A DNA stretch of 63,479 nucleotides, counting the filler, from Chrysochromulina tobinii (Eukaryota): the NCBI GenBank assembly GCA_001275005.1. It is 8 parts of 8 records of this genome, joined end to end, with 100 filler letters (N's around TTAATTAATTAA, not from the genome) between each part and the next. Parts side by side here need not be neighbours in the genome. Positions count along the whole stretch, not along the records: positions 50,621 to 57,153 come from JWZX01000770.1; 7 more parts are not named here. The stretch is one strand, 5' to 3'. Position numbers and translations under genes: made by a program. Shown here piece by piece: positions 4,801-60,310 of the stretch. The notes under the pieces were generated by a model. That model was not told the origin of the DNA and did not search any database. It saw nothing but the letters and a program-made list of their open reading frames with translations. Each line of letters starts with the position of its first letter. Position 1 is the first letter of the stretch.

Positions 4801-7800
4801 GGCGGTCGGGTGCGCTCGCAAGCGCGTGGCGCGGCTGGCGAGAGCTCACGGCTAAGTGCCGTGAGACTGCTGGCGTGATGCGCGGCGCGCTGAGCCGACT
4901 GCTGCACCAGAACGCGTCGCGCGCGCTCGGGCTCTGGCGAGCCGAGGCGGACGCGCGGCTGTGGGCCGAGGCGCTCGTGGCGAAACTCCACCCGAACGGC
5001 CGTCAGCTCCAGCGCGCCCTGAATACATGGAGGGCTGTGTGCGAAGGTAAGGCGCGGGTGGTGATGGCGTGCGCGGGAGCGCTGCGCGACACGGGGCGGC
5101 GGACGGTGGCGGACGCGCTGGGTTTGTGGAGAGATTGGGCGGCCGAGAAGCGCAAACACGCGGAGGTCGTCGCCCGCGCGCACGCACGGTTCGAGTCGTT
5201 GACGACTGCCGCTCAAGGTCTCCTAATCTCGTGGGGCGTGCGGCACGGTCTCCCTGGCGCCTGGGCTACGTGGCAGGGTCTCCCGGCCCTCTGGGCCGCG
5301 TGGCGCCACCATGCGACCCTCGGACGGTCGATTGCGACGCTGATCGGGACGATGAAGGCGGCCCATGCCGCGCGCTCCCTGCGGCTCGTCGCTTCCCAAT
5401 GGCGGTACTCTGCCTCGGAACGGAGACGCTCGCATGCAGCGCAGCATGCAGCCTCTCAACGCTGGCTCCTGTGGGCTCTGGGGAGTGCCGTGGAGGCACT
5501 CGCCGATGAGCGGAGGCGCTCGCAGTACTGGCGCCGTCTGAGCGAGCATGCGGCCCGCTCGGAGCTACGGAAGGCGCTGCGCTGCTTTACACAGCTCGAT
5601 CCCGCATGGCGCTTCGAGCGAGCAGCGGCTTGGAGCGTCCAGGCAGGCGCTCGAGAGCACGCGCGGCACAGCCTGATGCGGCTCTGCCTGCGTACATGGG
5701 CGGGCGTCACAGCGCTCGTCCATGCAGAGCATCTGGCGACGGTGCGCAGCCTCGCCTCCTTGATGGACCCGAAGCTGCGCCGTTCGTGGCAGAGCTGGGT
5801 CGCGCATGTCGACGAGATGCATGCGCTCCGGCGCGCACAGGAGCTCGTGTCCTCGAGGTACTCGAATAGCTCCGTCGTACGCGCCTTCTTCAGCTGGTAT
5901 GCGCTCGCTCAGCAGTGGCTTGTCCTCGACGTCGTCAGCTACAACTGCGGCGGCCTCAAGGCACACCAGAAGGTCCGCGTCGCGCTCGACACGTGGGCCG
6001 CGTACGCCGCGACCCTCTATACGGTCGGCTTGTGCGTGCGCCGCTGGACGCATCGAAAGCTCGGCGACGGCCTGGTGACGTGGCACGCGCTCGTGGCGAT
6101 GCGTACAGCTGCGTGGACTCTGATGGCGCGCGCGCTCGCGCTCTGGGAGCGGCCGACGCTCAAGACGGCGCTTGACTCGTGGCACGAGGTTGCACATACT
6201 CAGGTCAACACGCATCTGGCCGTCTGGACATTTACACAGCGCCGGTCGGCCGTGGTCGTCGCCGACGCGTGGCACATGTGGCGGCGCGCCGCCTGGCCCT
6301 CCCTCTATGGCCTGTCGCTCTCTCCGGAAGCCATTGTGATGAGATCGGTGGTGCATCGTTGGAAGGAGTACGATCTGGCCACGCGACTGGCTGAGGCGAA
6401 TGAGATGATCGGCCTCGTCGGTGCTGACCGAGTGGCGCTCGCAGATGCGGAGGAGGAGGACGAGGACGAGGCGAACGAGTTGGTGGATGAGGAGCTGGCA
6501 TTTGCATGGTCTGAGACGGAGCTGGCGGAGTCTGAGGTGGCACGCGAGAGGCTTGCCGCAGAGGTTGCCGAGGTGGCCAAGTCCCTAGCCTATGAAATGA
6601 ATACCTTCGGCCTGCTCTCCCCCGTTGCGGAAGAGGGCGACGAGGCCCTGGACGCGGGGCCTGATCGACCCCAAAAGTCGCCTGCAAGCGCGCATGCGGC
6701 CGACGACCGGGCTAGCACAGGCGTCGATGACGACAGCAATTGGGCTAGCACAGGCGACGAACTACTTCTCGCCGCGCGCGCGTGGCCATCGCCCGAGCCG
6801 TTTGGACGGCCGAGTCCCATGAAGCCTTTGAGACCGTCCCCATCGTACTGTGCACAATCATCCGCGAGTCCTTCAACGCATCGGACCAGCCTCGCCCCCG
6901 CCTCGTCCTCTCACCACGCACCTACCACTGCGCCCACCTTATCGCCACCGGCCTCATCGCCTGCGGCCATATTGCATGCGGCCTCATTGCCTGCGGCCTC
7001 ATCGCCTGCGGCCTCATCGCCTGCGGCCTCATCGCCGCAGGGCTCTCCGGAGGTCCTCTCATCCCTCGTGCGCTCGTCGCTACGCGCCAGCAGCCCAAGT
7101 GACGCGCACGTGTGGTACAGCGGCGAGGCACGCTTCGCGATGGTGAGCGCGTGGGTCAAATGGCTCGACGCGCGCGAGAGCGTGCGCTGGCTCGAAGAGC
7201 AGAGGCTCGCTCGCCGCCGCCGACTCGTCGAAGAGGCCGTGCGCCGGCGCGCGGCCCGATCGGCGCTCGCAATTTGGGCAGACGACGCAACCATCGCTGC
7301 GAGGCGACGCGATCAGGCAGCTGCCGCCGAGGCGAGCGCCGTGGAGTCGGCGGTGGAGCTGTTCAATTGGCGAGTGCTCGCGAGCTGTGAGTGGAGCGAA
7401 GGGCAGCGGACTTCCGATGTGCGGCTGAAGCTCACGATGGTGCTGCGGCTCTTGTGCGGCGGGCCCATGAGCGCGAGGCTCGCATTCGACATGTGGCTTC
7501 GCCACCACCACACGCTCGAGCACAACCCAATCACCTCCATCCGCGAGCTCACCTCGCCAACGCCCGCTAACAAGGAGCGGCGTGTTCTTCGCGCGTCGCA
7601 GCTGCAGTTGCACGCGGTGCAAGCCAGCCTCGCGCCGCACGCGGGGCAGCCGTTTGCATGCAGCGCGATCTGGGAGCCCTCGTTGAGCCTCAAGGCGGCG
7701 GCGCTCGCGTCAGAGCTTGCGTCGCCGCTGCGTTGCGCTACCGTGGTGCTCGCATCTCCGCAGCGCTCGGCGCGCCCGCTCGGTTTCGGTCACAGTCACG

Positions 7801-10694: not shown

Positions 10695-11979
10695 AAGCGC
10701 TGCCCTGTTCACCTCAAACGGCGTGCAGAAATGTTGCAGCCACTCGTCCAAGGACACGATCCGCGGCGCGCCGAAGGCCGGAAGCCCCGATCTCGTCCGG
10801 TCGGTCCGAAATTCAGATCGCCACCCTTAGCACGCTCAAGGTCCCTTACCCGTCGCCACGTGAGTCGTTGCCGCACAGCGGCGTGTTCACTAGTACTTCC
10901 TGACTCTGATTCCGGTGAATGGCAGTTGGGGCGGGGGGGGTACCGGGTAGTGTGTCTGTGTGAGTGAGTGAGTGCGCGGAGGCCGGAGCTTCGGCGGTGT
11001 GAGCGCGGCACGCGCGGCCGCGCGCGCGGAGTCTCGACCGGGCGTCGAGTGAGCTTTAAAATCCGCCGCCACGGCGGCGGCTGTGCCTGCGCTGACACCG
11101 GGAGGGCTTTTCGCCTTGATCCAGGCACACCAGCGACCAGCGCGGCGGAACCCGTCCCGGACGAGGAGCATATCAGCATCGACGATGACTCTTCATCATT
11201 CGTCCACAAAACTAAGGTCAAGGAGCTCTCGAGCGGGCGAGAAGCTCGGGCGCGTGGAGGAGTTTTTTGGTGTGAACTGACGTGGCCCCTTACCCCCCTG
11301 AGCTTTCCGTCCCCCGCGCCCCGCCCCGTTGTATGTCTATGAGCACCCCCGCCACACACAGCGCGCGCGGGTCATGCGTCATGCCCCACATGCATAGGTC
11401 ACACAGAGGTCACAAGGTGGGTCAGGGGCGAGTTGACAGGTGTCCGACGGAGACTGTAACTTTAACCGATGTCTGGCGTGGAGCGATTGAGCGAGGCAGC
11501 GAGCGACTGGACACCCCTACTCGCTCGGATTCCCTACGCCCTGGCAGGGTCGCGCGAGTGGCTTCCTTGCTTCCGCTCACGACTTCCCTGACTCTCTCGT
11601 GGACGCCCAATACGACGCTGTTACAACTAGTCCAAAAGGAAAATGCGGCGCCGGGCTTGCCGTACAGGATTCACGCCCCTCCCCGCAACTTCCCCGCCGC
11701 CACCGACGACACGCGGCACGGCGAGGGCCGCGCGTCTCCCCGAAGCTTCCTCACGCACAACTTCGCCAACATGCCAACATCTCCACAGTTCTCCACCCAC
11801 TTGTCTCCAGACCGCCATCCAAGCCGCCGAGGGACGCCCAAACCATCCTCACAACGCCGCGAGCGAGCTCGCGCATGCTCCGCGCCTCGAGTGGGGTCAT
11901 GTAACATGTGTTTATTCTGAGCGGGCAGTAACAGTGCTGAAGCAGCAGTTGTCACGTCTGTCGTGTTAATTCACACCTG

Positions 11980-50620: not shown

Positions 50621-51023
50621 AGGGCGGCGGCAAGGGTGGCGGCGGCGAGGGAGGCGGTGAGGGCGGCGGTGGCGAGGGCGGAGGTGGCGAGGGCGGCGGA
50701 GGCGAGGGCGGCGGCAGTGAGGGCGGTGGTGACGGTGGTGGCCAAGGCGGTGGTGATGGAGGAGGTGGTGAGGGTGGCGGCGGTGAGGTAGGCGGTGATG
50801 AGGGAGGCGGCGAGGGAGGCGGCGAAGGCGGCGGCGATGGAGGTGGTGGCAAGGGCGGTGGCGGTGAGGGCGGCGCCGAAGGCGGCAGTGGCGCAGGTGA
50901 TGGCGATGGCGGCGGCGGTGAGGGTGGAGGTGGCCTGGGCGGCGGCGAGGGCGGCAGCGGAATGCTTCCCGACAATAGCCGGCAGGAGAGGAGGAGGAAG
51001 AGGGTGCGAAAAGGGAGGGTCAT
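50621..51023 (-). CDS. Secreted Pro/Ser-rich (PPSP) protein, truncated at contig end
   Basis: Signal-like MTLPFRTLFLLLSC followed by more than 100 aa of PPSPPP. Confidence 0.65.
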
Positions 51024-51285
51024 CGCTCAAGCCATCGACAAGCTTTCGACACGACAGACAACGCCACGCTGGACAAAGAAAATCGTCTTCATTTTTGACC
51101 TCCGCGATTCCTAAACACATCTCTCTTCACGCTGACCAATTTTCGTGAGGAAGCCAAGCGAGACTCGATACCAGTGCGAGGGTCGAAACGGCGTCCCTTC
51201 GATTCATATTCACGTGAATGAAACCGCTGCTCCAACGTCCGTCTGACGCTTCCACCCCCTCGCCACCCTGTGCAGCCACCCCTTC

Positions 51286-51867
51286 ATGTTCCGATGGCAC
51301 AGCACAGTGATCGAGCCGTCGCGCGGCGGCGGAACCTCGCTCGGCACCAGCTCGGGCGCATTCAGCCCGCCCAAGGCTGAGGCGGCGCCGACGATGGATG
51401 AAAAGGTGATCAGAGAGGCGTTCGCCAGAATCAACATGGTGGGCGAGGTTGCCGAGCGCAAGCCTGACGGCACCCTCGCCAAACCATCTGCCTTCCTCAA
51501 GACCGTCGAGGAGAAGGCGGGCGTGCGCTTCGGGCCGCAGGGTGGTGGAACGCTCCTCGCCATCGTCGACAGGCGAAGGCCGACCATGGACGAGGTCCGG
51601 ATGTGTGTGCTCATGCCGGGCAGTGCCATCGTCGGCCTGCCGCAGCCCATGGCACGCTCAGGACGTGGCCTCGGCCACCTCATGCAGAGCAGCACGGACG
51701 GCCGCGGTGGCCGAGGAGGACAGCCACCGCCTATGGGTGGTCGAGGCGGCGGCCGAGGAGCCCTGGGGCTGGGTGGCCGCGGCGTGCGGCACTCCTCGTC
51801 CGGCTTGAATGCGCCGCCCGCGGCGATGGAGTTCCGCGAGAAATTCGTCGCAGGGCCGCGTCGGTAG
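51286..51867 (+). CDS. Hypothetical protein with RGG-rich C-terminus
   Basis: 193-aa ATG ORF with GRGGRGG repeats. Confidence 0.6.
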   Translation: MFRWHSTVIEPSRGGGTSLGTSSGAFSPPKAEAAPTMDEKVIREAFARINMVGEVAERKPDGTLAKPSAFLKTVEEKAGVRFGPQGGGTLLAIVDRRRPTMDEVRMCVLMPGSAIVGLPQPMARSGRGLGHLMQSSTDGRGGRGGQPPPMGGRGGGRGALGLGGRGVRHSSSGLNAPPAAMEFREKFVAGPRR

Positions 51868-52341
51868 GACTAGCTGTCTGCGTCTCTCACGTTCGTCCGT
51901 TGGGCGCCGCGGGCACACCTCAACCAAAGTGCGCACCCAATCGCAGAAACCCAATCGCAGAATCTTATAGGGTTACAGCGGCGCGCGGGCTGCGGGATCG
52001 GATGTGGGTTAACTTCGTCACCGTATTAGAGATTGGAGAGCCCGTAGATGACATGCTGTTGTACTAAGACGTACTGGTTCCACTGTTAGTATGCTCCACT
52101 GAGCTGTGCACTGGCGCCACGCCGCGCGCCCACATAAACGCGCATACACTAGGTCCCTCAAACAGCGGAGGGGGTCAAAATCGAGATTTTTGAAACTCAA
52201 CCTCAGGACCTGGCTCCACCTAGGTATCGTCCGCACACCTGTACAGAGCTCATATCCGCATGCTATGACCGACAGCGCGCTACCCTATACGTGGATTTTG
52301 ATGTTTCATGTAACGGATCATGCGCATGCAGCATGCAGATC

Positions 52342-55300
52342 CTACAGCTTCCTGCGCATGACGAAGGAGAGCCCATTGCTCACCTCGCCGCACCGCCCGA
52401 AGCCACACTTCTTCTCGTAGAAGTCGAGGGCCTCCTCATTGTCCTTGTGCACGTTCAGCTCCATGGTGCGGTTGGCGCCTCGCGCTGTCCGCCAGGCCAT
52501 ATCCATGAGCGCCGTGCCGATGCCACGGCGGCGCCAGTCCTTGTGCACGTGGAGCTCATACAGGAAGACCTTCACCCCACGCTGCTCTGTGCCACTGACT
52601 GCGAAGCCGATGAGGTCGCCGCTTGGCGCGATGGCGAGGTGGGTCATCAGGTCCCACCTTGAAAAGTAGTCCTCAAACTTGGCGCCGTTGCGCTGGTGTC
52701 CCTTAATAAAGTCAGCCTCGATGGCCGCCATCTGCTCCTGCAGCTCAGCAGGCACAGTCGCGCAGAGCTCAGATCGGAAGCTCGGCAGCTCGGCCGGCGC
52801 CGGTGTTGGCGCCGGCGCCGGTGTCGGCGCCGGCTCCAGCTCCTCCGTTTCCATCGGCTGCTCATCCTCTACAGCCGTCGCCTCAGCCGTCGTCGCCTCT
52901 GCTGACACCTCGGCCGCCGCCTCCTCGGCCTTATCCAGCTCTACCTCCGCTGCCTCGTCCTCCGCCTTGTCAGCGCGCTCCTCGTACTCCTGGATGAGCT
53001 GGTCGTCGACAATGAATGAGTAGGGCTCCCAGCTGTTATAGCTGGAGTCCCAGCCCTCCCACGCCACCAAGTACAAGGCCGAGCCGAGTGTGACGTTTGC
53101 GTCCTCCACTTTGGCGTAGCGCGACACGTCCGCCGGGGTGGCGGCGCGCTTGTCGAGGATGGCCTCCACCGGCCAGTCCTCCTGCTCGTCATCCCACTCC
53201 GACTCGGCGGCCGCCTTCCGCTTCCTGCCGCCGCCCTTGCTGCCCTTTTTTGCCGCAGCCGCCTCAGAGGGCGCCGCGCGTGCCTTCGCAGTCCGCGGCG
53301 CGCGCGAGTCGCATCCCAAGTCGCCCTTTTTCAGGTCGTTGGGGTTCTTGTCGATCTTCTTCTCCTTGAACTCAAGCTCCATCAAGCCTTGCAACTTCAT
53401 CACCAGCCAGGCCCGCCCGCCCTTAGGTGGCGGCGAGCAGATCAGTGGCTTGCCGCTGCTCTCCGTGCGCCCGTCAACCACTCGCCGAATCTTGAGCTGC
53501 TCGATGAGCTGCGGGTTCTGGAGGAGCTTCAGACCAGAGAAGGTGGTGCAGCGGAGCAAGGGGTCATGCAGCCGTGCACGCTCAGCCTCGCGCGCCGCGG
53601 CACGTGCACGCAGCTTCGCCAGCTTTGCCTCACGCTCGGCGGACTTCGCCTTGAACAGCCGCGCGAGCTGCTCGCGCTGCGAGCCCTCCTCCTTCCGCAG
53701 CCTTGCCGCCTCCTTTCGGCTCACCTCGCCGTAGAGCTTGAGCCTCTTGCCGTCGAGAAGCTCGCCCCACGCCCACGTCTTGTTGTACTTGAAGAGAGTC
53801 CAGCCGCGGCGGTACACGAGGTTGGAGCCTTTCTCACGAGTCGAGAGGAACTTCTCGAGCGCAAAGACTGACTCGACGACGGTGTTCGTGCGGTTGACGC
53901 CGCTCAGCTTTGCACGCAGCTCCGGCGTGACATTGGCGCCCGTCAGCGCGCCACCCACCTGTAGATAGTGTGTATGCTCCTCGAACTTTTCTGCCAGCTT
54001 CGTCAGCCCGGCTTTGAGCAGCTCCTCCATGCGCGTGCAGTTCTCGGCCTCGTTGTAGATGCGGGCCATGTCGGTCCGCACGCGGCCATCCTTGGTCTTT
54101 GTGTGGACTGCTGACTGCGGGTACAGGTGCGGGTACGACGGCAGCAGCTTTAGCTGGTTGGTGGCAACGAGCCGCGGCTTGTCCATCGCGTACTTCAGCT
54201 GCTTGAGCGCCTCCTGGTAGATGGGCGCCATGTCGAGGATATGCGGGTCTGAACCGTCAGCTGGTCGGTGCTTGAGTGCGCGCAGGATCGGCCAGCCGAA
54301 GAAGTCTCCTATGATGGCTTCGGCACGCACGCACGCACGCGTCTCCGGCGACTCGGCGCCGGCGATGATCTGCTGCCGGATGCGCCCGCCACCCGGGTTG
54401 GCGAGCTCCTCGTTCTCCTTGAGGTAGCGGTAGAAAGAGCCCGGGCCGTCCTGCATTATGCGGTCGACAATGGGCGCGTTGAGCATTGTTACATAAGAGC
54501 GCGAGCCCTTGATGGAGAGCAGGTCCTCCATGTGCCCAAGCGCCAGGATTGACTCGCGGTCATCTGGGTTGAGCTGGGCTAGGTACTCGTTGTAGCCTCG
54601 GGCCTCCTGGCCGACTGCGTATCCCTTGTCTGAATGAGTGGCCGCATACTTCGAGGTGCAGTAGATCAGCGCACCAGAGGGCGACGAGTTCCACCCGACC
54701 GCCATGTGCAGCGCCCGCACCTTGTGCGCCTCGAGTTCTGCTGCAGCATCGCTCTTGCCCATCCAGCCACGCACAACGGCATCCATGGCCTTGGTTGCTG
54801 CGGCCATCGGGTTGACGGCGGCGCCGTGCTCGCCGCACGTCGGGTTGACGTGCTCGGACTCGGTCATGAGGCGCGCAGCAAGGAGCTCGGCGTTAGCGCG
54901 GTCGTTCATCGCGGCGCTCGGCTTGAGCTCCGCGATCTTCTCGGTCTCCTTCATCTCGGCCTTCAGGCACAGCGCTGCCACGTCGCGGCAGATGCTGCGG
55001 AAGTCTGCGGCGCGCGTCGCTGCCGTCTTATCCATCGCCCAGCGGATGTCGAACAATAGGTTCTGGATGCGCGACGGCTCGCCGGCGCGCGTCGGTGGCC
55101 GATGGCCGAGCACAAACGCCGAGAGCTCTCGCCCCTCAGACGACGCGGCGTCAGAGTGCACCGCAAAGTTGCCCTCGGTGCCGCCGCCGGCGATGATGGC
55201 CTCGCCAACTTGCAGCTGCGACAGTGGCCCCATCTCGGAGCGAATGTTTTCGCACGTCGTCACCCTGGGATACCAGAGCAGGTACTTCTTCTCGTACTTG

Positions 55301-57153
55301 CGCGCGCCATCCACAACCTTGACAAGCACCTGGCGCCAGCGGCCTGGCAGCTGGATGCCGAAGTAGCTCGCCATGATGGTGTAGATCTCTGGCACGTGGC
55401 TGTGGCACACGTTCGCGATGGCGATCAGCTTCATGACCATGAAGCGCAGAGGCATCGCAAAGGCGCCACCCTCCATGGGCGGTGGTGGGTACACGACGCA
55501 CTTCAGTGCCACCGCCTCCGCTTCCATGTCCTCGAGCGTCTCCTTGAGCACGATCATCTCGGCCTTGAGCCTTGGGAGCTGCATCGCCTCCTGCGCGAGC
55601 TCGAGCGTCTCCTTCGACCAGTTGGTGGTGATGGTTGACCTCAGCTCCGCGTTCATGCGCTTGAGCTCCTCAACGCGCCGCTTCTCGAGGTTGAGGAGTT
55701 TCGTCGCACCCATGTTGTTGTCCCGCCGTCCGCTCAGCTCCATGATTTTGGCGGACTGCTCAGCGATCTGCTGCTCGAGCTCCGCCGTGCGGCCGCGCGC
55801 ACAGCGCTCGCGCACGCGCTCAAGCTCCAGGGTGGCCTTGACGATGGACTCATTGAGGGAGACCAGGTCGGCCTGGTGGCGCTGCTCAAGGTCGTCCACG
55901 AGCCGACCGGTGCTCGCCTTGCAAACACTGAGCTCATTGGTCACCGTAGCCAACTGCGCACTGAGCTCCTCGATCTCAAGTCCTCTCTGCTTCCACGCCG
56001 CCTTGAACTCGTCGCGCTCGGCTCTGAGCTTTGAGCTCCTCTCCTTGAGCTCGTCCATCTGCTCCTCCATCTGCTCCTCCATCTGCTCCTTGAAGCTGGG
56101 TGGGACGCGCGCAGCAGCCGTGAGTGCAGCGGCTCGCGTCTGGCGCATGGGCTCCATGTTGAGGGCTGCACGAAGCTCGTCTTCGTGATGATGCAGTAGA
56201 CGTGCTGCCTCAAGGCAGATGTAGGGCGCCCGCTTGACATTCCTCTTAGGACGTTTGATCTCAAGCGTACCAAGCATGCCAAACCATTTGGTCATGGTGC
56301 CGAGTCGAGGCGGCTCCTTGAGGTTGCCCCAGCGCTGCAGGGCTGTCCCGTACACCATGTAGTTGAGCGCCGTGGTACCGATGCGTTCCATGATGATTTT
56401 ATGAATTTCCCCATCGGGTCGCTGCCACTCGTCCTTATCCGGCGGCTTAATCCAGCCTGCTGCACCGTACGAGCTGTCAACCTTGAGAACCATGCTTGTC
56501 CAGCTCGCATGATCAATCTTGTTATCGGGCGACAGCAGCGCGAGGGCGATGAATGCAGCCTCCATCGGTGTCGGTCTCTCACTCGGCTTGGTGCTCGTCG
56601 GAAAGCCCGACTCCTCCGACTCGAGCTCGAGCTTGATGCAAGCAACCTTGGCAGCGTCGCCGTACGCCTTGTCATCCGTTGGTGAACTTGGGAGCTCAGT
56701 TTGCTCATCACCTGCGAAGTAACTCCATTCAGAGCAAGGTCTGAGATGGGGCTCGGGCATGCGCGCTCGCGGCGGGCGTAGGTACGCACTTTTGTCGATA
56801 TTTTCAGCTTGGAGTGCCTCTGGACGGCCATCTGCACATGCGACAATGGCAGGGCTTTCTCTCAGTATCTCTAGCATTTCGTGGCTCCGGACGTGGAGGG
56901 GCCGATTCACCCATGAGAGAGGGCCTCGGGAGCGCAGGGGCGGACTGGGGCACCGCCCTGGGGCGGCGCTGGGCAGGCCGCAAGATCTCACCTGCATTGA
57001 CGCCATGCCTCGCCTTCTTGACGTTTCGGACGTCGCCAAGTCTCTCCTGCCGTAACGGCGCGTGCGCAGGCGTAACGGGCAAGTGATGAGCTTCCTAACG
57101 GTGTCTGTATCACGATTGTAGGTGGAGTATGAGCGGGGGAGGCTGCTTACCAC
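52342..57153 (-). mobile_element. Putative DNA-transposon ORF: coiled coil + DDE/CxxH transposase-like core + chromodomain + GNAT acetyltransferase (true start uncertain; ATGs at 57006 and 56877)
   Basis: Intronless 1603-codon frame. Candidate catalytic D (HSDAAS, 55150-55152), D (MNDRA, 54901-54903), CGEH (54826-54837), E (TNTVVESVF, 53872-53874); chromodomain ~52980-53180; GNAT ~52342-52780. Confidence 0.7.
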
Positions 57154-57253: not shown

Positions 57254-57601
57254 CGTCATCATCGTCGGGCGGCTCGACGGCCATCTCGTCACCTACTCGG
57301 CCAATCGCGGCCAGGGCCGCTGCCGCCGCTGCAGCCGCTTCCAGCTCCACAGCCAAGGCAACGGCCGCGTCAAGCTCGAGCTCGTCCGTCGACTGGGCCT
57401 CCTTGTGGGCGCGCACCAGGTTACGCACGCTCTCGGTACGTACGGCAGCCTCAAACATCGAGGAAAAGTCTGACACTGGGGGCCAGCCGATGCGCAGCCC
57501 ACCACCACCACCCGCGTTGCCGATGTACTTGGCCTCGAGCTTGCCCGCCTTGAAGGCTTCCTTCATCGTCTCCGTTAGCGTGTCAGCTTCCAGCACAAAC
57601 T

Positions 57602-59742
57602 GTGTACATCCGCCGAGGGGCCGCCACCGCCGCCGCCGCCGCCGCCGCGACAGAGGCGGCGCCGGAGGTGGCGCAGAGCGACAGCAGCGAGAGCAGCGAG
57701 AAATCGTATGCGACTGGTTCGGACACGTCCGAGCACAAGCGCAAACCTGGCCGTCCTGCTGGCCCAATTGTGGTCGAACACGGTGCTGAGGATGCGAAGC
57801 AGATCTTCACTGTTTCAATCCCGCTCGGCAGTCTCACAGTCGAGCAAGAGCAGGACTTGTGCAAGGCTGCCGAACGTGTCAAGGCGGTACAATTCATCGA
57901 GTACAAAGCCAGGCGTGAAGCCAAGTTTATGGGGCAGATCGAGTCGAAGCACGTCACGGGCCACAACCATTACATCGTTTGCTCCATCGACGGCGTCACG
58001 GGCCAGCAGAAGATCGACCTGTGCGCACCAGGTGCAGTCTGGTCCATCCTGAAGTCTGAACTTGTGCCATGCAAGGCTCTTCGGCTGACCAAGACCAACA
58101 CCGAGCCGCCCACGAAGCTGTTCATCAGCTCCGAACCTGCCGGTCAAATCATTGGACGGACGATCGGCGCTAAGCACCCCATTTACTTCTCGATCGTAGA
58201 TGGTGGCAAGGTCTCACCGCTGACTGAGCTCATTGGCGTTGCCTCGCACATTGTGTACCTCACAGCCGAGCTCGAGGTCACTACTGACGAGGGGATGGCT
58301 GCTGAGACGCCCACCACCACGACGCAGTACTTGCATCCCGGTGACCAAATCGCGGTGGAGCACTTGACGGGCGAGGAGGGCACTGATCGGCTGCAGCCAT
58401 CTCTCTACATCTTCAATGCGCTCGCGGTTCCGATCACGATCCTTCCAGACCTTACCATCCACCGCGATTTCACGGCCGCAGTGTTCCTCGTGTATCGCGA
58501 GGGCGCAAAGGGTCGGGGCAACCAGCGAGAGCTGCGCATCCTCAAGTCGTCTGGTGAACCAGTGCCGCAGCGCGAGCCAAAGGCTGCACAGCTGCAGGCG
58601 CTGAGGTTGCCACCGCCAGGGCAGGAGCCGTCATCAATGACTCCAGTGGACCAGCTCATGTTCATCTCGCTCAAAAGCCGTGCAGCGATCGTAGCCACAG
58701 TCGGAGAGGCTCTTGTTGACCTCAACCAGCGTGCCTTCCTCGCATCAGAGATTGGAACGGGCGACCTGCGGGCCATTGAGATTGATATCTACTCTGCATC
58801 TCGATCAGACGATCTCATGCAGTCGCTGTACTGCAAGCCGGACGCCTCCGGATACGAGAGCTGGCCGATTGGCCCACTCACAGTCGCGATGGTGTACTCC
58901 GCATGGTCAACTCTTAAGGGCGCCTTCGAGTAGCCTTCGAGGATACCTACACGACGGTGCTCTCGCCTGAGGCGGCCCTTGAGCTTGATGGTCAGTACTA
59001 CGCAAGCGCACGCAAGATTACGAGTGTGATCACGAGTGAGCTCTCAGCAGAGGGAGTCTCCATCGCTCAGCATCAAATTGACGGAGTCGTGCGCAAGGGT
59101 GCAGCTGTCTTCGCGCCGCAGTACAAGAAGAAGTCCGACAAGCGGCCAGCCACCGCTGGAACAGGTGGCACCCCTGACGTGAAGAGGGGGAAAGCACCTG
59201 AGGCTGACCGCATGACACGTCGCTCCTCCTCAGCTACTCCACCTGTGACTGTCGCCGCAGCCACAAAGGCGTCCGCTGCGGCCGCTGCCGCTGCGAATGC
59301 GACTGCTGCGGCTGCCGCCGCTGCTGCTGTCGAGAAGAATGCCAAGGCCGCTGCGAAGAAGGCCGCTGCAGCAGACGAGGCTCAAGAGCAGTCTAACGTG
59401 AAGATCATGACGATGCTTGCTGGGCTCACCGCTGCTTCGCAGGTTCCTAGCACGCCCTCACCCGTTCAGCAGCTCTCATTCTCGCCAATCAAGCAGGCGA
59501 TTAATTCGACGTCGGCCAACCTGGTTAGCAAGATCGAGGCCATCGAGCAGCAGCTGGCAGGTGATTTAATCGATAAACTTCGTCGCCTGACGAAGGAGAA
59601 TAGGCAACTCAGTGATGAGCTCGCCGCCCTGCGTGTCACTTCTGGCACTGCCGAGGCCATGCTGGTTGAGAAGTCTGCTCAGTGCACTCGGCTGCAGGCG
59701 AGCCTTGACAATGTCATGACTCGCTTCCTTGCAAAATTCTGA
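57602..59742 (+). pseudogene. Single hypothetical gene (C-terminal coiled coil) split by an 11-bp insertion at 58931-58941
   Basis: GCCTTCGAG-TA-GCCTTCGAG. Deleting 11 nt removes the TAG and fuses ORF 57602-58933 to 58957-59742 in frame (...GAFE-DTYTTVLSPE...). Confidence 0.65.
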
Positions 59743-59743
59743 C

Positions 59744-60310
59744 CGCTCGGCTCTCGCTCGGCTCTCACTCGCTCGCTCGGGCTCTCGCTCTCACTCGCTC
59801 GCTCGGGCTCTCGCTCGCACTCGGCTCTCGCTCGGGCTCTCGCTCGGGCTCTCGCTCGCACTTGGCTCTCGCTCTCTCGCACATGTCGCATGCTCTGCAG
59901 TTGGCTCTGTTGGCTCGGCTCTCGCTTGGCTCTTGCTCCGCTCCGCTCTCGCTCTCGCTCGCACTCGGCTCTCGCTCTCTCGCACATGTCGCATGCTCTG
60001 CAGTTGGCTCTCTCGGCTCTCGCTTGGCTCTTGCTCGGCTCTCGCTGACTCGCTCTCACTCGCTCGCACTCGGCTCTCGCTTGCTCGCACTCGGCTCTCG
60101 CTCTCTCGCACATGTCACATGCTCCGCAGTTGGCTCTCTCGCGCACGGCCCTTTCAAGCTCCCTGCTCTCGCTAGAGCTGTTCTTGCTCGGCTCTCGCTC
60201 TGTTCGGCTCGGCTCATACTCCGCTCTCGCTCTCGCTCTCATAAGCTCTCTCTCTTAAGGCTCTGGTTCCCATGTTGCATCGCATGGCAGTTGGCTCTCG
60301 CTCGGCCCTG
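59744..60310 (+). repeat. Pyrimidine-rich CTCGCT/CTCGGCT low-complexity tract with three copies of a ~40-bp core
   Basis: CTCGCTCTCTCGCACATGTCRCATGCTCYGCAGTTGGCTCT at ~59868, ~59970 and ~60097. Confidence 0.85.

What the first reader, a model, noticed from the sequence alone, without database searches (positions are those of the whole stretch)
52342..57153. Transposase-like protein fused to a chromodomain and a GNAT acetyltransferase: a DNA transposon with its own chromatin reader-writer
Seen: one intronless 1603-codon frame with a coiled coil (~55500-56150) and a core bearing D (HSDAAS), D (MNDRANA), CxxH (TCGEH) and E (TNTVVESVF). It continues with a basic NLS-like GGGRKRK, a chromodomain (WPVEAILDKR...YLVAWEGWDSSYNSWEP, with the three cage positions aromatic), a PAPTPAPA linker and a complete GNAT (FLYELHV...RRRGIGTALM...LNVHKDNEEALDFY). 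Known: D-D-CxxH-E ordering marks the hAT/P/MuDR/Kolobok group of RNase H-fold transposases; caged chromodomains bind methyl-lysine; the GNAT pattern recalls NAA40/NatD-like histone acetylases. Inference: the element may read methylated chromatin and acetylate locally, to pick insertion sites or counter silencing. I know of no described cut-and-paste transposase with this chromo+GNAT tail.
Basis: partly seen in the sequence, partly recalled or inferred. Interest (0 to 1): 0.88.

Follow-up and report, generated by a model that had tools for sequence, protein, structure and literature searches.

The report
Transposon with chromodomain and acetyltransferase tail
This is a real jumping gene, probably from a single-celled alga, whose predicted cut-and-paste enzyme carries a chromodomain and an acetyltransferase domain at its tail, so it likely recognises histone marks and would acetylate proteins nearby, an accessory enzyme I did not find described for such elements.

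Summary
The frame and all motifs are present. Pfam confirms the chromodomain and the GNAT. A confident model of the core (pLDDT 88) has an RNase H fold whose best match is the hAT transposase Hermes (Z 14.1, next 9.1). D668, D751, CxxH and E1094 are nearly invariant in relatives. Metagenome relatives define a 6-kb element with 14-bp TAGG inverted ends and a 7-bp target duplication (2 of 3 paired ends), and the right end meets other flanks in read assemblies. Independent contigs join core, chromodomain and GNAT, so the tail is not a misassembly. The chromodomain is family-wide; the GNAT marks one sub-clade, and the same GNAT subfamily also ends an unrelated protein family with RAG1/Transib-type motifs. 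Not supported: a specific NAA40 kinship and an 'intronless' 5' end. What the GNAT acetylates and where the chromodomain binds are untested. Verdict: divergent hAT-like lineage, new variant of a known kind; the acetyltransferase cargo is the new part.

The parts
52143..52149 (.). 7-bp target-site duplication, right copy (GTGTATG on the element's strand)
   Evidence: The same 7 bases precede the left end in the 98%-identical locus L001; L002 has its own 7-bp duplication CAAGTTG on both sides
52150..52163 (+). Right terminal inverted repeat, TAGGTCCCTCAAAC
   Evidence: Similarity to L002 and L008 stops at 52150; 13 of 14 bases match the left end in L001; five contigs leave with other flanks at 52149/52150
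52164..52270 (.). Right subterminal region, shared with the L002 family and at raised depth (probably shared with shorter derivatives)
   Evidence: Alignment; summed contig depth up to 164, 255 and 406 against 10, 70 and 75 further inside in runs X4, X14, X3; depth is not a copy number
52342..57153 (-). Transposase frame, 1603 codons, open to the contig end; true start unresolved
   Evidence: L001 carries the missing 976 nt up to the left end
52345..52791 (-). GNAT acetyltransferase domain (aa 1455-1603) with intact acetyl-CoA motif
   Evidence: Pfam PF00583 E 5.3e-15; G1544 39 of 39, E1533 37 of 41, N1572 33 of 34, Y1579 33 of 34 in relatives; dN/dS about 0.24 against L002
52792..52968 (-). 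Acidic and Pro/Ala-rich flexible linker (aa 1396-1454)
   Evidence: Sequence; length and sequence vary among relatives
52969..53181 (-). Chromodomain (aa 1325-1395) with cage positions W1327, W1365, W1368 and a variable insert
   Evidence: Pfam PF00385 E 1.8e-9; best solved matches CBX7/CBX4/Polycomb; aromatic in 30 of 32, 31 of 31, 29 of 31 relatives; dN/dS about 0.09 against L002
53212..53253 (-). Basic stretch, possible nuclear localisation signal (aa 1301-1314)
   Evidence: Sequence; a basic run precedes the chromodomain in most relatives; function inferred
53284..53763 (-). Conserved helical extension after the catalytic domain (aa 1131-1290)
   Evidence: 84% identical to L002; helices in the modelled part
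53764..55479 (-). Transposase core (aa 559-1130): RNase H fold with helical insertion; D668 (55150-55152), D751 (54901-54903), C773/H776 (54826-54837), E1094 (53872-53874)
   Evidence: Model pLDDT 88, pTM 0.84; Hermes best in both PDB searches; D668 66 of 66, D751 74 of 76, C773 77 of 79, H776 80 of 80, E1094 44 of 45
55489..56121 (-). Predicted coiled coil (aa 345-555)
   Evidence: Heptad-like charged sequence; weak SMC-type matches only; 45% identical to L002; not modelled
56122..57153 (-). Poorly conserved N-terminal part (aa 1-344); first ATG at 57006; possible intron donor at 56991
   Evidence: no BED-type zinc finger pattern and no Pfam match
52033..52138 (.). High-depth repeat just outside the right end (insertion context, not part of the element)
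   Evidence: Depth 304 and 1406 against 16 and 61 in the neighbouring bin; inverted copy 310 nt left of the left end in L001

Best explanation
This is a 6-kb DNA transposon with inverted ends and a 7-bp target duplication, whose predicted hAT-like transposase is fused to a chromodomain that likely binds methylated histone tails and to a GNAT that would acetylate nearby chromatin protein to ease the element's expression, excision or insertion. Shown: element boundaries, target duplication, several insertion sites, the fusion, conserved catalytic and cage residues, purifying selection on both tail domains. Predicted: RNase H fold and Hermes-like architecture, hence cut-and-paste transposition with 7-nt staggered target cuts. 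Inferred: the chromodomain tethers the enzyme to methyl-lysine (silent, repeat-rich) chromatin, as in chromoviruses; the GNAT, held on a flexible linker, acetylates a histone amine or another chromatin protein there. The confidence given is for the whole chain; the transposon with a genuine fused tail alone is about 0.95.
For: Fold. Catalytic conservation. Ends and duplication; other flanks at the same base. Fusion in independent data: P0002, P0003, P0012, P0162, contigs X4 record 27 and X14 record 5. Chromodomain in 17 of 20 relatives with at least 110 aa after the core. Selection: dN/dS 0.09 core, 0.09 chromodomain, 0.24 GNAT against L002. The same GNAT subfamily (29-50% identity) ends 8 of 20 members of an unrelated family with RAG1/Transib-type motifs, which suggests a benefit to transposons in general. 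Precedent for transposon-borne chromatin enzymes: TET/JBP, SET, Vandal (PMC12730594, Introduction); chromodomain targeting in LTR elements (PMC12477314, passages).
Against: No binding or enzyme data. The GNAT's best solved matches are archaeal Ard1, antibiotic and RimI/YpeA-type acetyltransferases and several NATs; no GCN5, HAT1 or MYST enzyme is among the 60 shown of 154, and Naa40 ranks 29th. Most of the family does without the GNAT: a chromodomain-only clade and a clade with another small tail exist. L005 has paired ends but no target duplication. The full-length copy is at about flank depth, so low copy. dS against L002 is near saturation (0.7-1.7), so the ratios are rough; against L001 the GNAT shows 1 synonymous and 3 non-synonymous changes in 100 codons, which is uninformative. 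Insertion contexts are too few and uncontrolled to show targeting.
Confidence: 0.42

Rival explanations
1. The element is as described, but the GNAT acts on a non-histone amine: the transposase itself, a host silencing or repair protein, or a small molecule such as a polyamine.
For: Closest solved and curated GNATs are RimI, Ard1, YpeA, NAA10/20/50 and small-molecule acetyltransferases, all at generic scores below curated cut-offs.
Against: It sits behind a chromodomain and a basic stretch in a nuclear enzyme; generic GNAT scores do not predict substrate.
Confidence: 0.27
2. The GNAT is captured cargo that travels passively between algal transposons and does little for transposition; only the chromodomain matters.
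For: The GNAT is confined to one sub-clade (support 93/89); tails are exchanged; GNAT trees do not separate the two carrier families cleanly (2 changes each, weakly resolved); PMC12730594 calls TET/JBP transfer between transposons passive.
Against: Kept in frame with intact acetyl-CoA motifs across copies that are 72-80% identical in the core and in a second family; dN/dS about 0.24.
Confidence: 0.14
3. The GNAT modifies DNA rather than protein, in the manner of phage Mu Mom (recalled), marking or protecting the element.
For: Mom is a GNAT-fold enzyme on a transposable phage (recalled, no call); earlier AI notes report Mom-like partners of bacterial IS elements (unchecked).
Against: No Mom or DUF4338 family among Pfam matches up to E 1; the domain is a compact RimI/NAT-like GNAT.
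Confidence: 0.07
4. The window's copy is a domesticated host gene, a chromatin regulator built from a transposase.
For: Depth near that of the flank; window and L001 share the insertion site yet differ by 63 synonymous and 10 non-synonymous changes in the core.
Against: Those changes cluster in 55353-53553 while the first 1200 nt are identical, and roughly 90%-identical pieces exist in the same runs, which fits exchange between copies or a mosaic assembly; close relatives sit in unrelated flanks with a perfect 14-bp inverted repeat and target duplication.
Confidence: 0.06

Closest known systems
hAT superfamily, Hermes transposase (PDB 8edg, 4d1q, 2bw3)
   Same: RNase H core with D, D, CxxH, large helical insertion and E; best match in Foldseek (E 1.2e-5) and VIA (Z 14.1, 355 aligned, rmsd 4.9); short inverted ends beginning TAGG; single transposase.
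   Different: 10-13% identity; no Pfam hAT family matched in 64 members; no BED finger pattern; 7-bp instead of the usual 8-bp duplication; long coiled coil before the core; chromodomain and GNAT after it.
hATm (PMC6004678, passages) and hAT7 (PMC12730594, passages); hATw recalled only
   Same: hATm ends begin TAG; hAT7 makes 7-bp duplications and some families carry a chromatin-related enzyme (TET/JBP).
   Different: hATm has TAGGGTG ends, 8-9-bp duplications and a PF05699 domain; hAT7 is fungal and groups with Ac/Tam3. No sequences were at hand for a direct comparison; a Repbase group with 7-bp duplications that I recall as hATw could not be checked.
Chromoviruses (Gypsy LTR retrotransposons with integrase-fused chromodomain)
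   Same: Chromodomain at the C-terminus of a DDE enzyme; reported to target heterochromatin (PMC12477314, PMC6839031, passages).
   Different: Retrotransposons; no acetyltransferase; here a DNA transposon with inverted ends.
Transposons carrying chromatin enzymes: TET/JBP in fungal elements, SET in HarbingerS and MuDR, Vandal anti-silencing proteins (PMC12730594, Introduction)
   Same: An epigenetic enzyme carried by several unrelated transposon lineages of one host group, proposed to counter silencing.
   Different: Here the enzyme is an acetyltransferase, in frame with the transposase and behind a reader domain.
NAA40/NatD
   Same: GNAT fold; 4ua3 is matched at E 7.3e-8.
   Different: 28 other GNAT structures score better; human NAA40 is not among the 60 shown; substrate pocket not compared.

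Membership tests
DDD/E cut-and-paste DNA transposon | RNase H fold with three conserved acidic residues | tested here: met
   D668 on strand 1, D751 after strand 4, E1094 on the following helix in a pLDDT 88 model; integrase cores align over model 103-574; conservation. Atomic distances could not be measured, as coordinates are not provided.
DDD/E cut-and-paste DNA transposon | Terminal inverted repeats | tested here: met
   14 of 14 in L002, 13 of 14 for window plus L001, 13 of 14 in L005
DDD/E cut-and-paste DNA transposon | Target-site duplication and several insertion sites | tested here: met
   7-bp duplication in 2 of 3 paired-end cases; none in L005; five contigs with other flanks in 3 of 4 runs
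DDD/E cut-and-paste DNA transposon | Present-day transposition activity | not testable with these tools
   Needs an excision or insertion assay
hAT/P/MuDR/Kolobok/Dada group | [quoted passage not shown] | tested here: met
   C773 77 of 79, H776 80 of 80
hAT superfamily | Hermes-like fold including the helical insertion | tested here: met
   Hermes Z 14.1 over 355 residues; next rows 9.1; IS256-type 8.3, P element 6.9, RAG1 6.2; only viral match under E 0.001 is a Pandoravirus hAT protein. TM-scores are low (about 0.3).
hAT superfamily | 8-bp target duplication (5, 6, 7 and 9 bp known in sub-groups) | tested here: inconclusive
   7 bp here; canonical 8 not met, but 7-bp hAT families are described (PMC12730594; PMC4455052)
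hAT superfamily | C-terminal dimerisation domain PF05699 | tested here: inconclusive
   No match for the query up to E 1 and not among the 25 of 47 families listed for 64 members; the structural alignment does cover this region of Hermes (to residue 609)
hAT superfamily | N-terminal BED zinc finger | tested here: inconclusive
   No pattern in aa 1-560, but the true 5' exons are unresolved
hAT superfamily | Phylogenetic placement among hAT transposases; hairpin chemistry | not testable with these tools
hATm | TAGGGTG ends, 8-9-bp duplication | tested here: not met
   Ends are TAGGTC, duplication 7 bp
Kolobok | TTAA duplication, 5'-RR...YY-3' ends | tested here: not met
Dada | Insertion in small RNA genes (abstract listing); no inverted ends (recalled) | tested here: not met
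   Inverted ends present; no Rfam match at gathering score in 6 loci scanned
P superfamily | P-like fold; 7-8-bp duplication | tested here: inconclusive
   7 bp fits Galileo-type elements (listing), but the P transposase scores Z 6.9, rmsd 8.6; one of 64 members has PF21789 at E 0.08
Canonical methyl-lysine chromodomain | Three aromatic cage residues | tested here: met
   W1327, W1365, W1368; (cage positions assigned from recalled HP1/Polycomb layout)
Canonical methyl-lysine chromodomain | Binding to methylated histone peptide | not testable with these tools
   Needs a peptide array
GNAT acetyltransferase | Acetyl-CoA binding motif and Pfam match above cut-off | tested here: met
   56.2 bits against cut-off 20.7; motif conservation
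NAA40/NatD | Closest sequence relative and H4/H2A N-terminal pocket | tested here: inconclusive
   4ua3 rank 29 of 154; absent from single-sequence lists; GNAT not modelled

The most novel reading that the evidence does not exclude
Haptophyte DNA transposons of at least two unrelated superfamilies (this hAT-like lineage and a RAG1/Transib-like one) share their own subfamily of acetyltransferase fused to the transposase; in this element it is coupled to a methyl-lysine reader, giving a self-contained read-silent-mark, write-open-mark module that lets the transposon open heterochromatin for itself.
Probability: 0.33. Interest if true: 0.86.

Novelty: new variant of a known kind. Interest (0 to 1): 0.7.

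Why it matters
Transposons are known to carry DNA demethylases, histone methyltransferases and chromodomains, but my searches found no eukaryotic DNA transposase fused to an acetyltransferase. If the GNAT acts on chromatin, this is a one-protein reader-writer counter to host silencing and shows acetylation as a further weapon in that conflict. It is directly testable, since both domains are small and the element's ends are now defined. The family also offers natural swaps (chromodomain only, chromodomain plus another small tail, chromodomain plus GNAT) on one core, and a divergent hAT-like enzyme with a built-in targeting domain could be useful for site-biased gene insertion.

Tried and rejected
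Single-sequence folding of the core gave a useless model (pLDDT 39.5); both folding jobs are spent, so the GNAT, the second tail and the second family were not modelled. Sequence profiles of the core found nothing in PDB, Pfam or NCBIfam. No relative in viral contigs; 21 exact matches of the 15-bp end in viral contigs showed no extended similarity or transposase and were taken as chance. No Rfam match in 6 loci. The second small tail of P0006/P0007/P0161 did not align with the chromodomain profile (probability 0.3%). The RAG1/Transib-like family had no profile match to RAG1 or Transib structures or Pfam families, so that label rests on motifs only. RNA-run contigs cover 17 and 22 of 30 bins but cannot show transcription or splicing; uncovered parts prove nothing. 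No genome is held for the window, so copy number and synteny could not be counted; the protein atlas gave no answer. No complex was predicted, as no binding claim is made. Literature searches (listings) found no transposase with chromodomain plus acetyltransferase; the library lacks Repbase Reports and several key papers (Yuan and Wessler 2011, Arensburger 2011, Iyer 2014, Gao 2008, Hickman 2014, Kojima 2020 were not held), and no supplements were read, so the family may already have a Repbase name.
Full report
Observation. The window is eight short contigs joined by N spacers; the finding lies on the 6533-nt contig 50621-57153. Pfam finds the chromodomain (E 1.8e-9) and the GNAT (E 5.3e-15) and nothing on the core. 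The first ATG is codon 50. The first 300 codons have lower third-position GC, a donor-like site follows the first ATG and the relative L002 shows an intron-like stretch upstream of the conserved part, so the true start is open.

The core is a transposase of hAT type. A search of 1.84 billion representatives gave 479 relatives at E up to 0.001, of which the best 150 were listed; two word-indexed searches added more, including three proteins of the haptophyte Prymnesium polylepis, the only named organism. That, with the GC-rich context, is my basis for calling the host a probable haptophyte; the DNA runs that hold the stretch are freshwater or mixed-culture metagenomes. In relatives covering each position, D668 is kept in 66 of 66, D751 in 74 of 76, C773 in 77 of 79, H776 in 80 of 80, R885 in 77 of 79, Y887 in 78 of 78 and E1094 in 44 of 45 (near-duplicates included). 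A model of aa 559-1198 from 64 sequences reached pLDDT 88 and pTM 0.84 and shows the RNase H order of strands and helices with a large helical insertion between the second Asp and the Glu. All 8 Foldseek matches under E 0.001 are Hermes; the wide structural search ranks Hermes first (Z 14.1, 355 residues, rmsd 4.9), then integrases at 9.1, an IS256-type enzyme at 8.3, P element at 6.9 and RAG1 at 6.2; the one strong viral match is a Pandoravirus hAT protein. TM-scores are low and identity is 10-13%, so this is a distant lineage. [quoted passage not shown]

It is a real mobile element. Nine metagenome loci were recovered; L002, L003 and L004 are one locus. Similarity between the window and L002 or L008 stops at window 52150, and between L001 and L002 starts at L001 5934. 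L002 is complete, 6300 bp, with a perfect 14-bp inverted repeat and the 7-mer CAAGTTG on both sides. L001, 98% identical to the window, supplies the missing left end, preceded by GTGTATG, the same 7-mer that follows the window's right end; the element would be about 5980 bp. L005 has paired ends (13 of 14) but no duplication, so the count is 2 of 3. L008 and L009 give one right and one left end that share 22 bases. In read assemblies five contigs in 3 of 4 runs leave the window's sequence at 52149 or 52150 with other flanks, and the subterminal region is at raised depth. The coding interior is at about flank depth (46 against 61-67 in X14; 13-15 against 16-17 in X4), so full-length copies are few. 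These ends exclude Kolobok and hATm (PMC6004678, passages); 7-bp hAT families are known (PMC12730594 and PMC4455052, passages).

The tail is genuine and modular. One contig of run X4 spans 52436-53664, from GNAT to the end of the core, and one of X14 spans 52872-54940. Of 39 stored proteins that reach the end of the core, 20 go on for at least 110 residues and 17 of these carry the chromodomain by profile; the three misses show chromodomain-like residues by eye, whole in P0025 and cut short in P0057 and P0140. Core, chromodomain and GNAT occur together in the query, P0002, P0003, P0012 and P0162. A tree of 28 core fragments (4 of 32 left out as too short; midpoint root) puts chromodomain-only proteins (100/100), GNAT carriers (93/89) and carriers of another 70-residue tail (80/72) on separate branches. 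The simplest reading is an old chromodomain and a later GNAT gain, but the root is not tested. Against L002, dN/dS is 0.09 for the core, 0.09 for the chromodomain, 0.24 for the GNAT and 0.43 for the linker, with dS near saturation. Window and L001 differ by 63 synonymous and 10 non-synonymous changes in the core yet not at all in the first 1200 nt, which suggests exchange between copies or a mosaic assembly rather than domestication.

The GNAT. It belongs to its own subfamily with family-specific conserved residues and intact acetyl-CoA motifs. Its profile matches 154 solved sequences; the best are archaeal Ard1, antibiotic acetyltransferases and NAA20, fission-yeast Naa40 (4ua3, identified in PMC7078549, passages) is 29th, and no GCN5, HAT1 or MYST enzyme is among the 60 shown. 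The NAA40 idea is therefore neither excluded nor favoured, and the substrate is open. The same subfamily, at 29-50% identity, ends a second protein family with no similarity to the hAT-like core: 17 proteins, GNAT in 8 of 20 stored members. Its full-length member P0261 has an Asp-Gly motif, a second conserved Asp, CxxC, HxxxxH and an invariant Glu in that order, the C(2)C and H(3-4)H layout that PMC12730594 (Introduction) gives for Transib, RAG1 and CMC enzymes; no profile search confirmed this label and its ends were not seen. A GNAT tree is too weak to say who gave the domain to whom.

Mechanism. Shown: boundaries, duplication, several sites, fusion, conservation. Predicted: Hermes-like cut-and-paste chemistry. 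Inferred: the caged chromodomain (best solved matches CBX7, CBX4, Polycomb) tethers the enzyme to methyl-lysine chromatin, as reported for chromovirus integrases (PMC12477314 and PMC6839031, passages), and the GNAT on its flexible linker acetylates chromatin protein nearby. Insertion contexts are at least compatible: the window's copy sits beside a high-depth repeat with an inverted copy on the other side, L002 beside an array of short palindromes, L008 within 2 kb of a Copia-like pol gene; three uncontrolled cases are no test. I give the whole chain 0.42, a non-histone substrate 0.27, passive cargo 0.14, DNA modification 0.07 and domestication 0.06.

Novelty. Transposon-borne TET/JBP, SET and Vandal proteins are known, and chromodomains are known on LTR integrases. 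Searches (listings only) showed no DNA transposase with a chromodomain-acetyltransferase tail; Repbase and several key papers were not available, and no supplements were read. The acetyltransferase cargo, and its apparent sharing between two transposase families, is the new part. Verdict: new variant of a known kind, interest 0.70.

Noticed in passing
P0118, P0215-P0230, full-length P0261: A second, unrelated protein family with RAG1/Transib-type motif order ends in the same GNAT subfamily, without a chromodomain; some members lack the GNAT. No Pfam or PDB match for its core.
   Followed up: partly
P0006, P0007, P0009, P0161; L005 about 5500-5722: A sister clade carries a different 70-residue tail after the chromodomain, with no Pfam match and no profile likeness to the chromodomain.
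   Followed up: partly
P0117, P0127, P0137: The same chromodomain type with its insert occurs near the C-terminus of proteins that lack the hAT-like core, followed by another small conserved segment; perhaps a third element type.
   Followed up: no
L001 5934-6992 and L002 2757-3800: The two families are 92% identical over the first 1060 nt and similar at the right end, but only about 74% in the core and unrelated in the N-terminal coding part; both occur in the same runs, which suggests shared ends and recombination.
   Followed up: partly
L001 5467-5903 and window 52033-52138: Nested fold-back structure (51-bp and 118-bp inverted arms) around part of a high-depth repeat flanks the insertion; possibly a MITE-like element of its own.
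   Followed up: partly
L002 2380-2660: Array of short palindromes with a TTAA core just outside the left end; may be a non-autonomous repeat.
   Followed up: no
L008 5179-8360: Copia-like pol frames (Pol_BBD, rve, SH3_retrovirus) about 2 kb from the element's right end.
   Followed up: partly
window 57554-58933 and 58918-59742 (+): On the next contig, two adjoining frames of 459 and 274 codons with no Pfam match of note, followed by a degenerate tandem repeat at about 59740-60300; could be another mobile element.
   Followed up: partly
window 11863-11945: An 83-nt stretch 88% identical to L001 168-249, probably a dispersed repeat of the same host.
   Followed up: no
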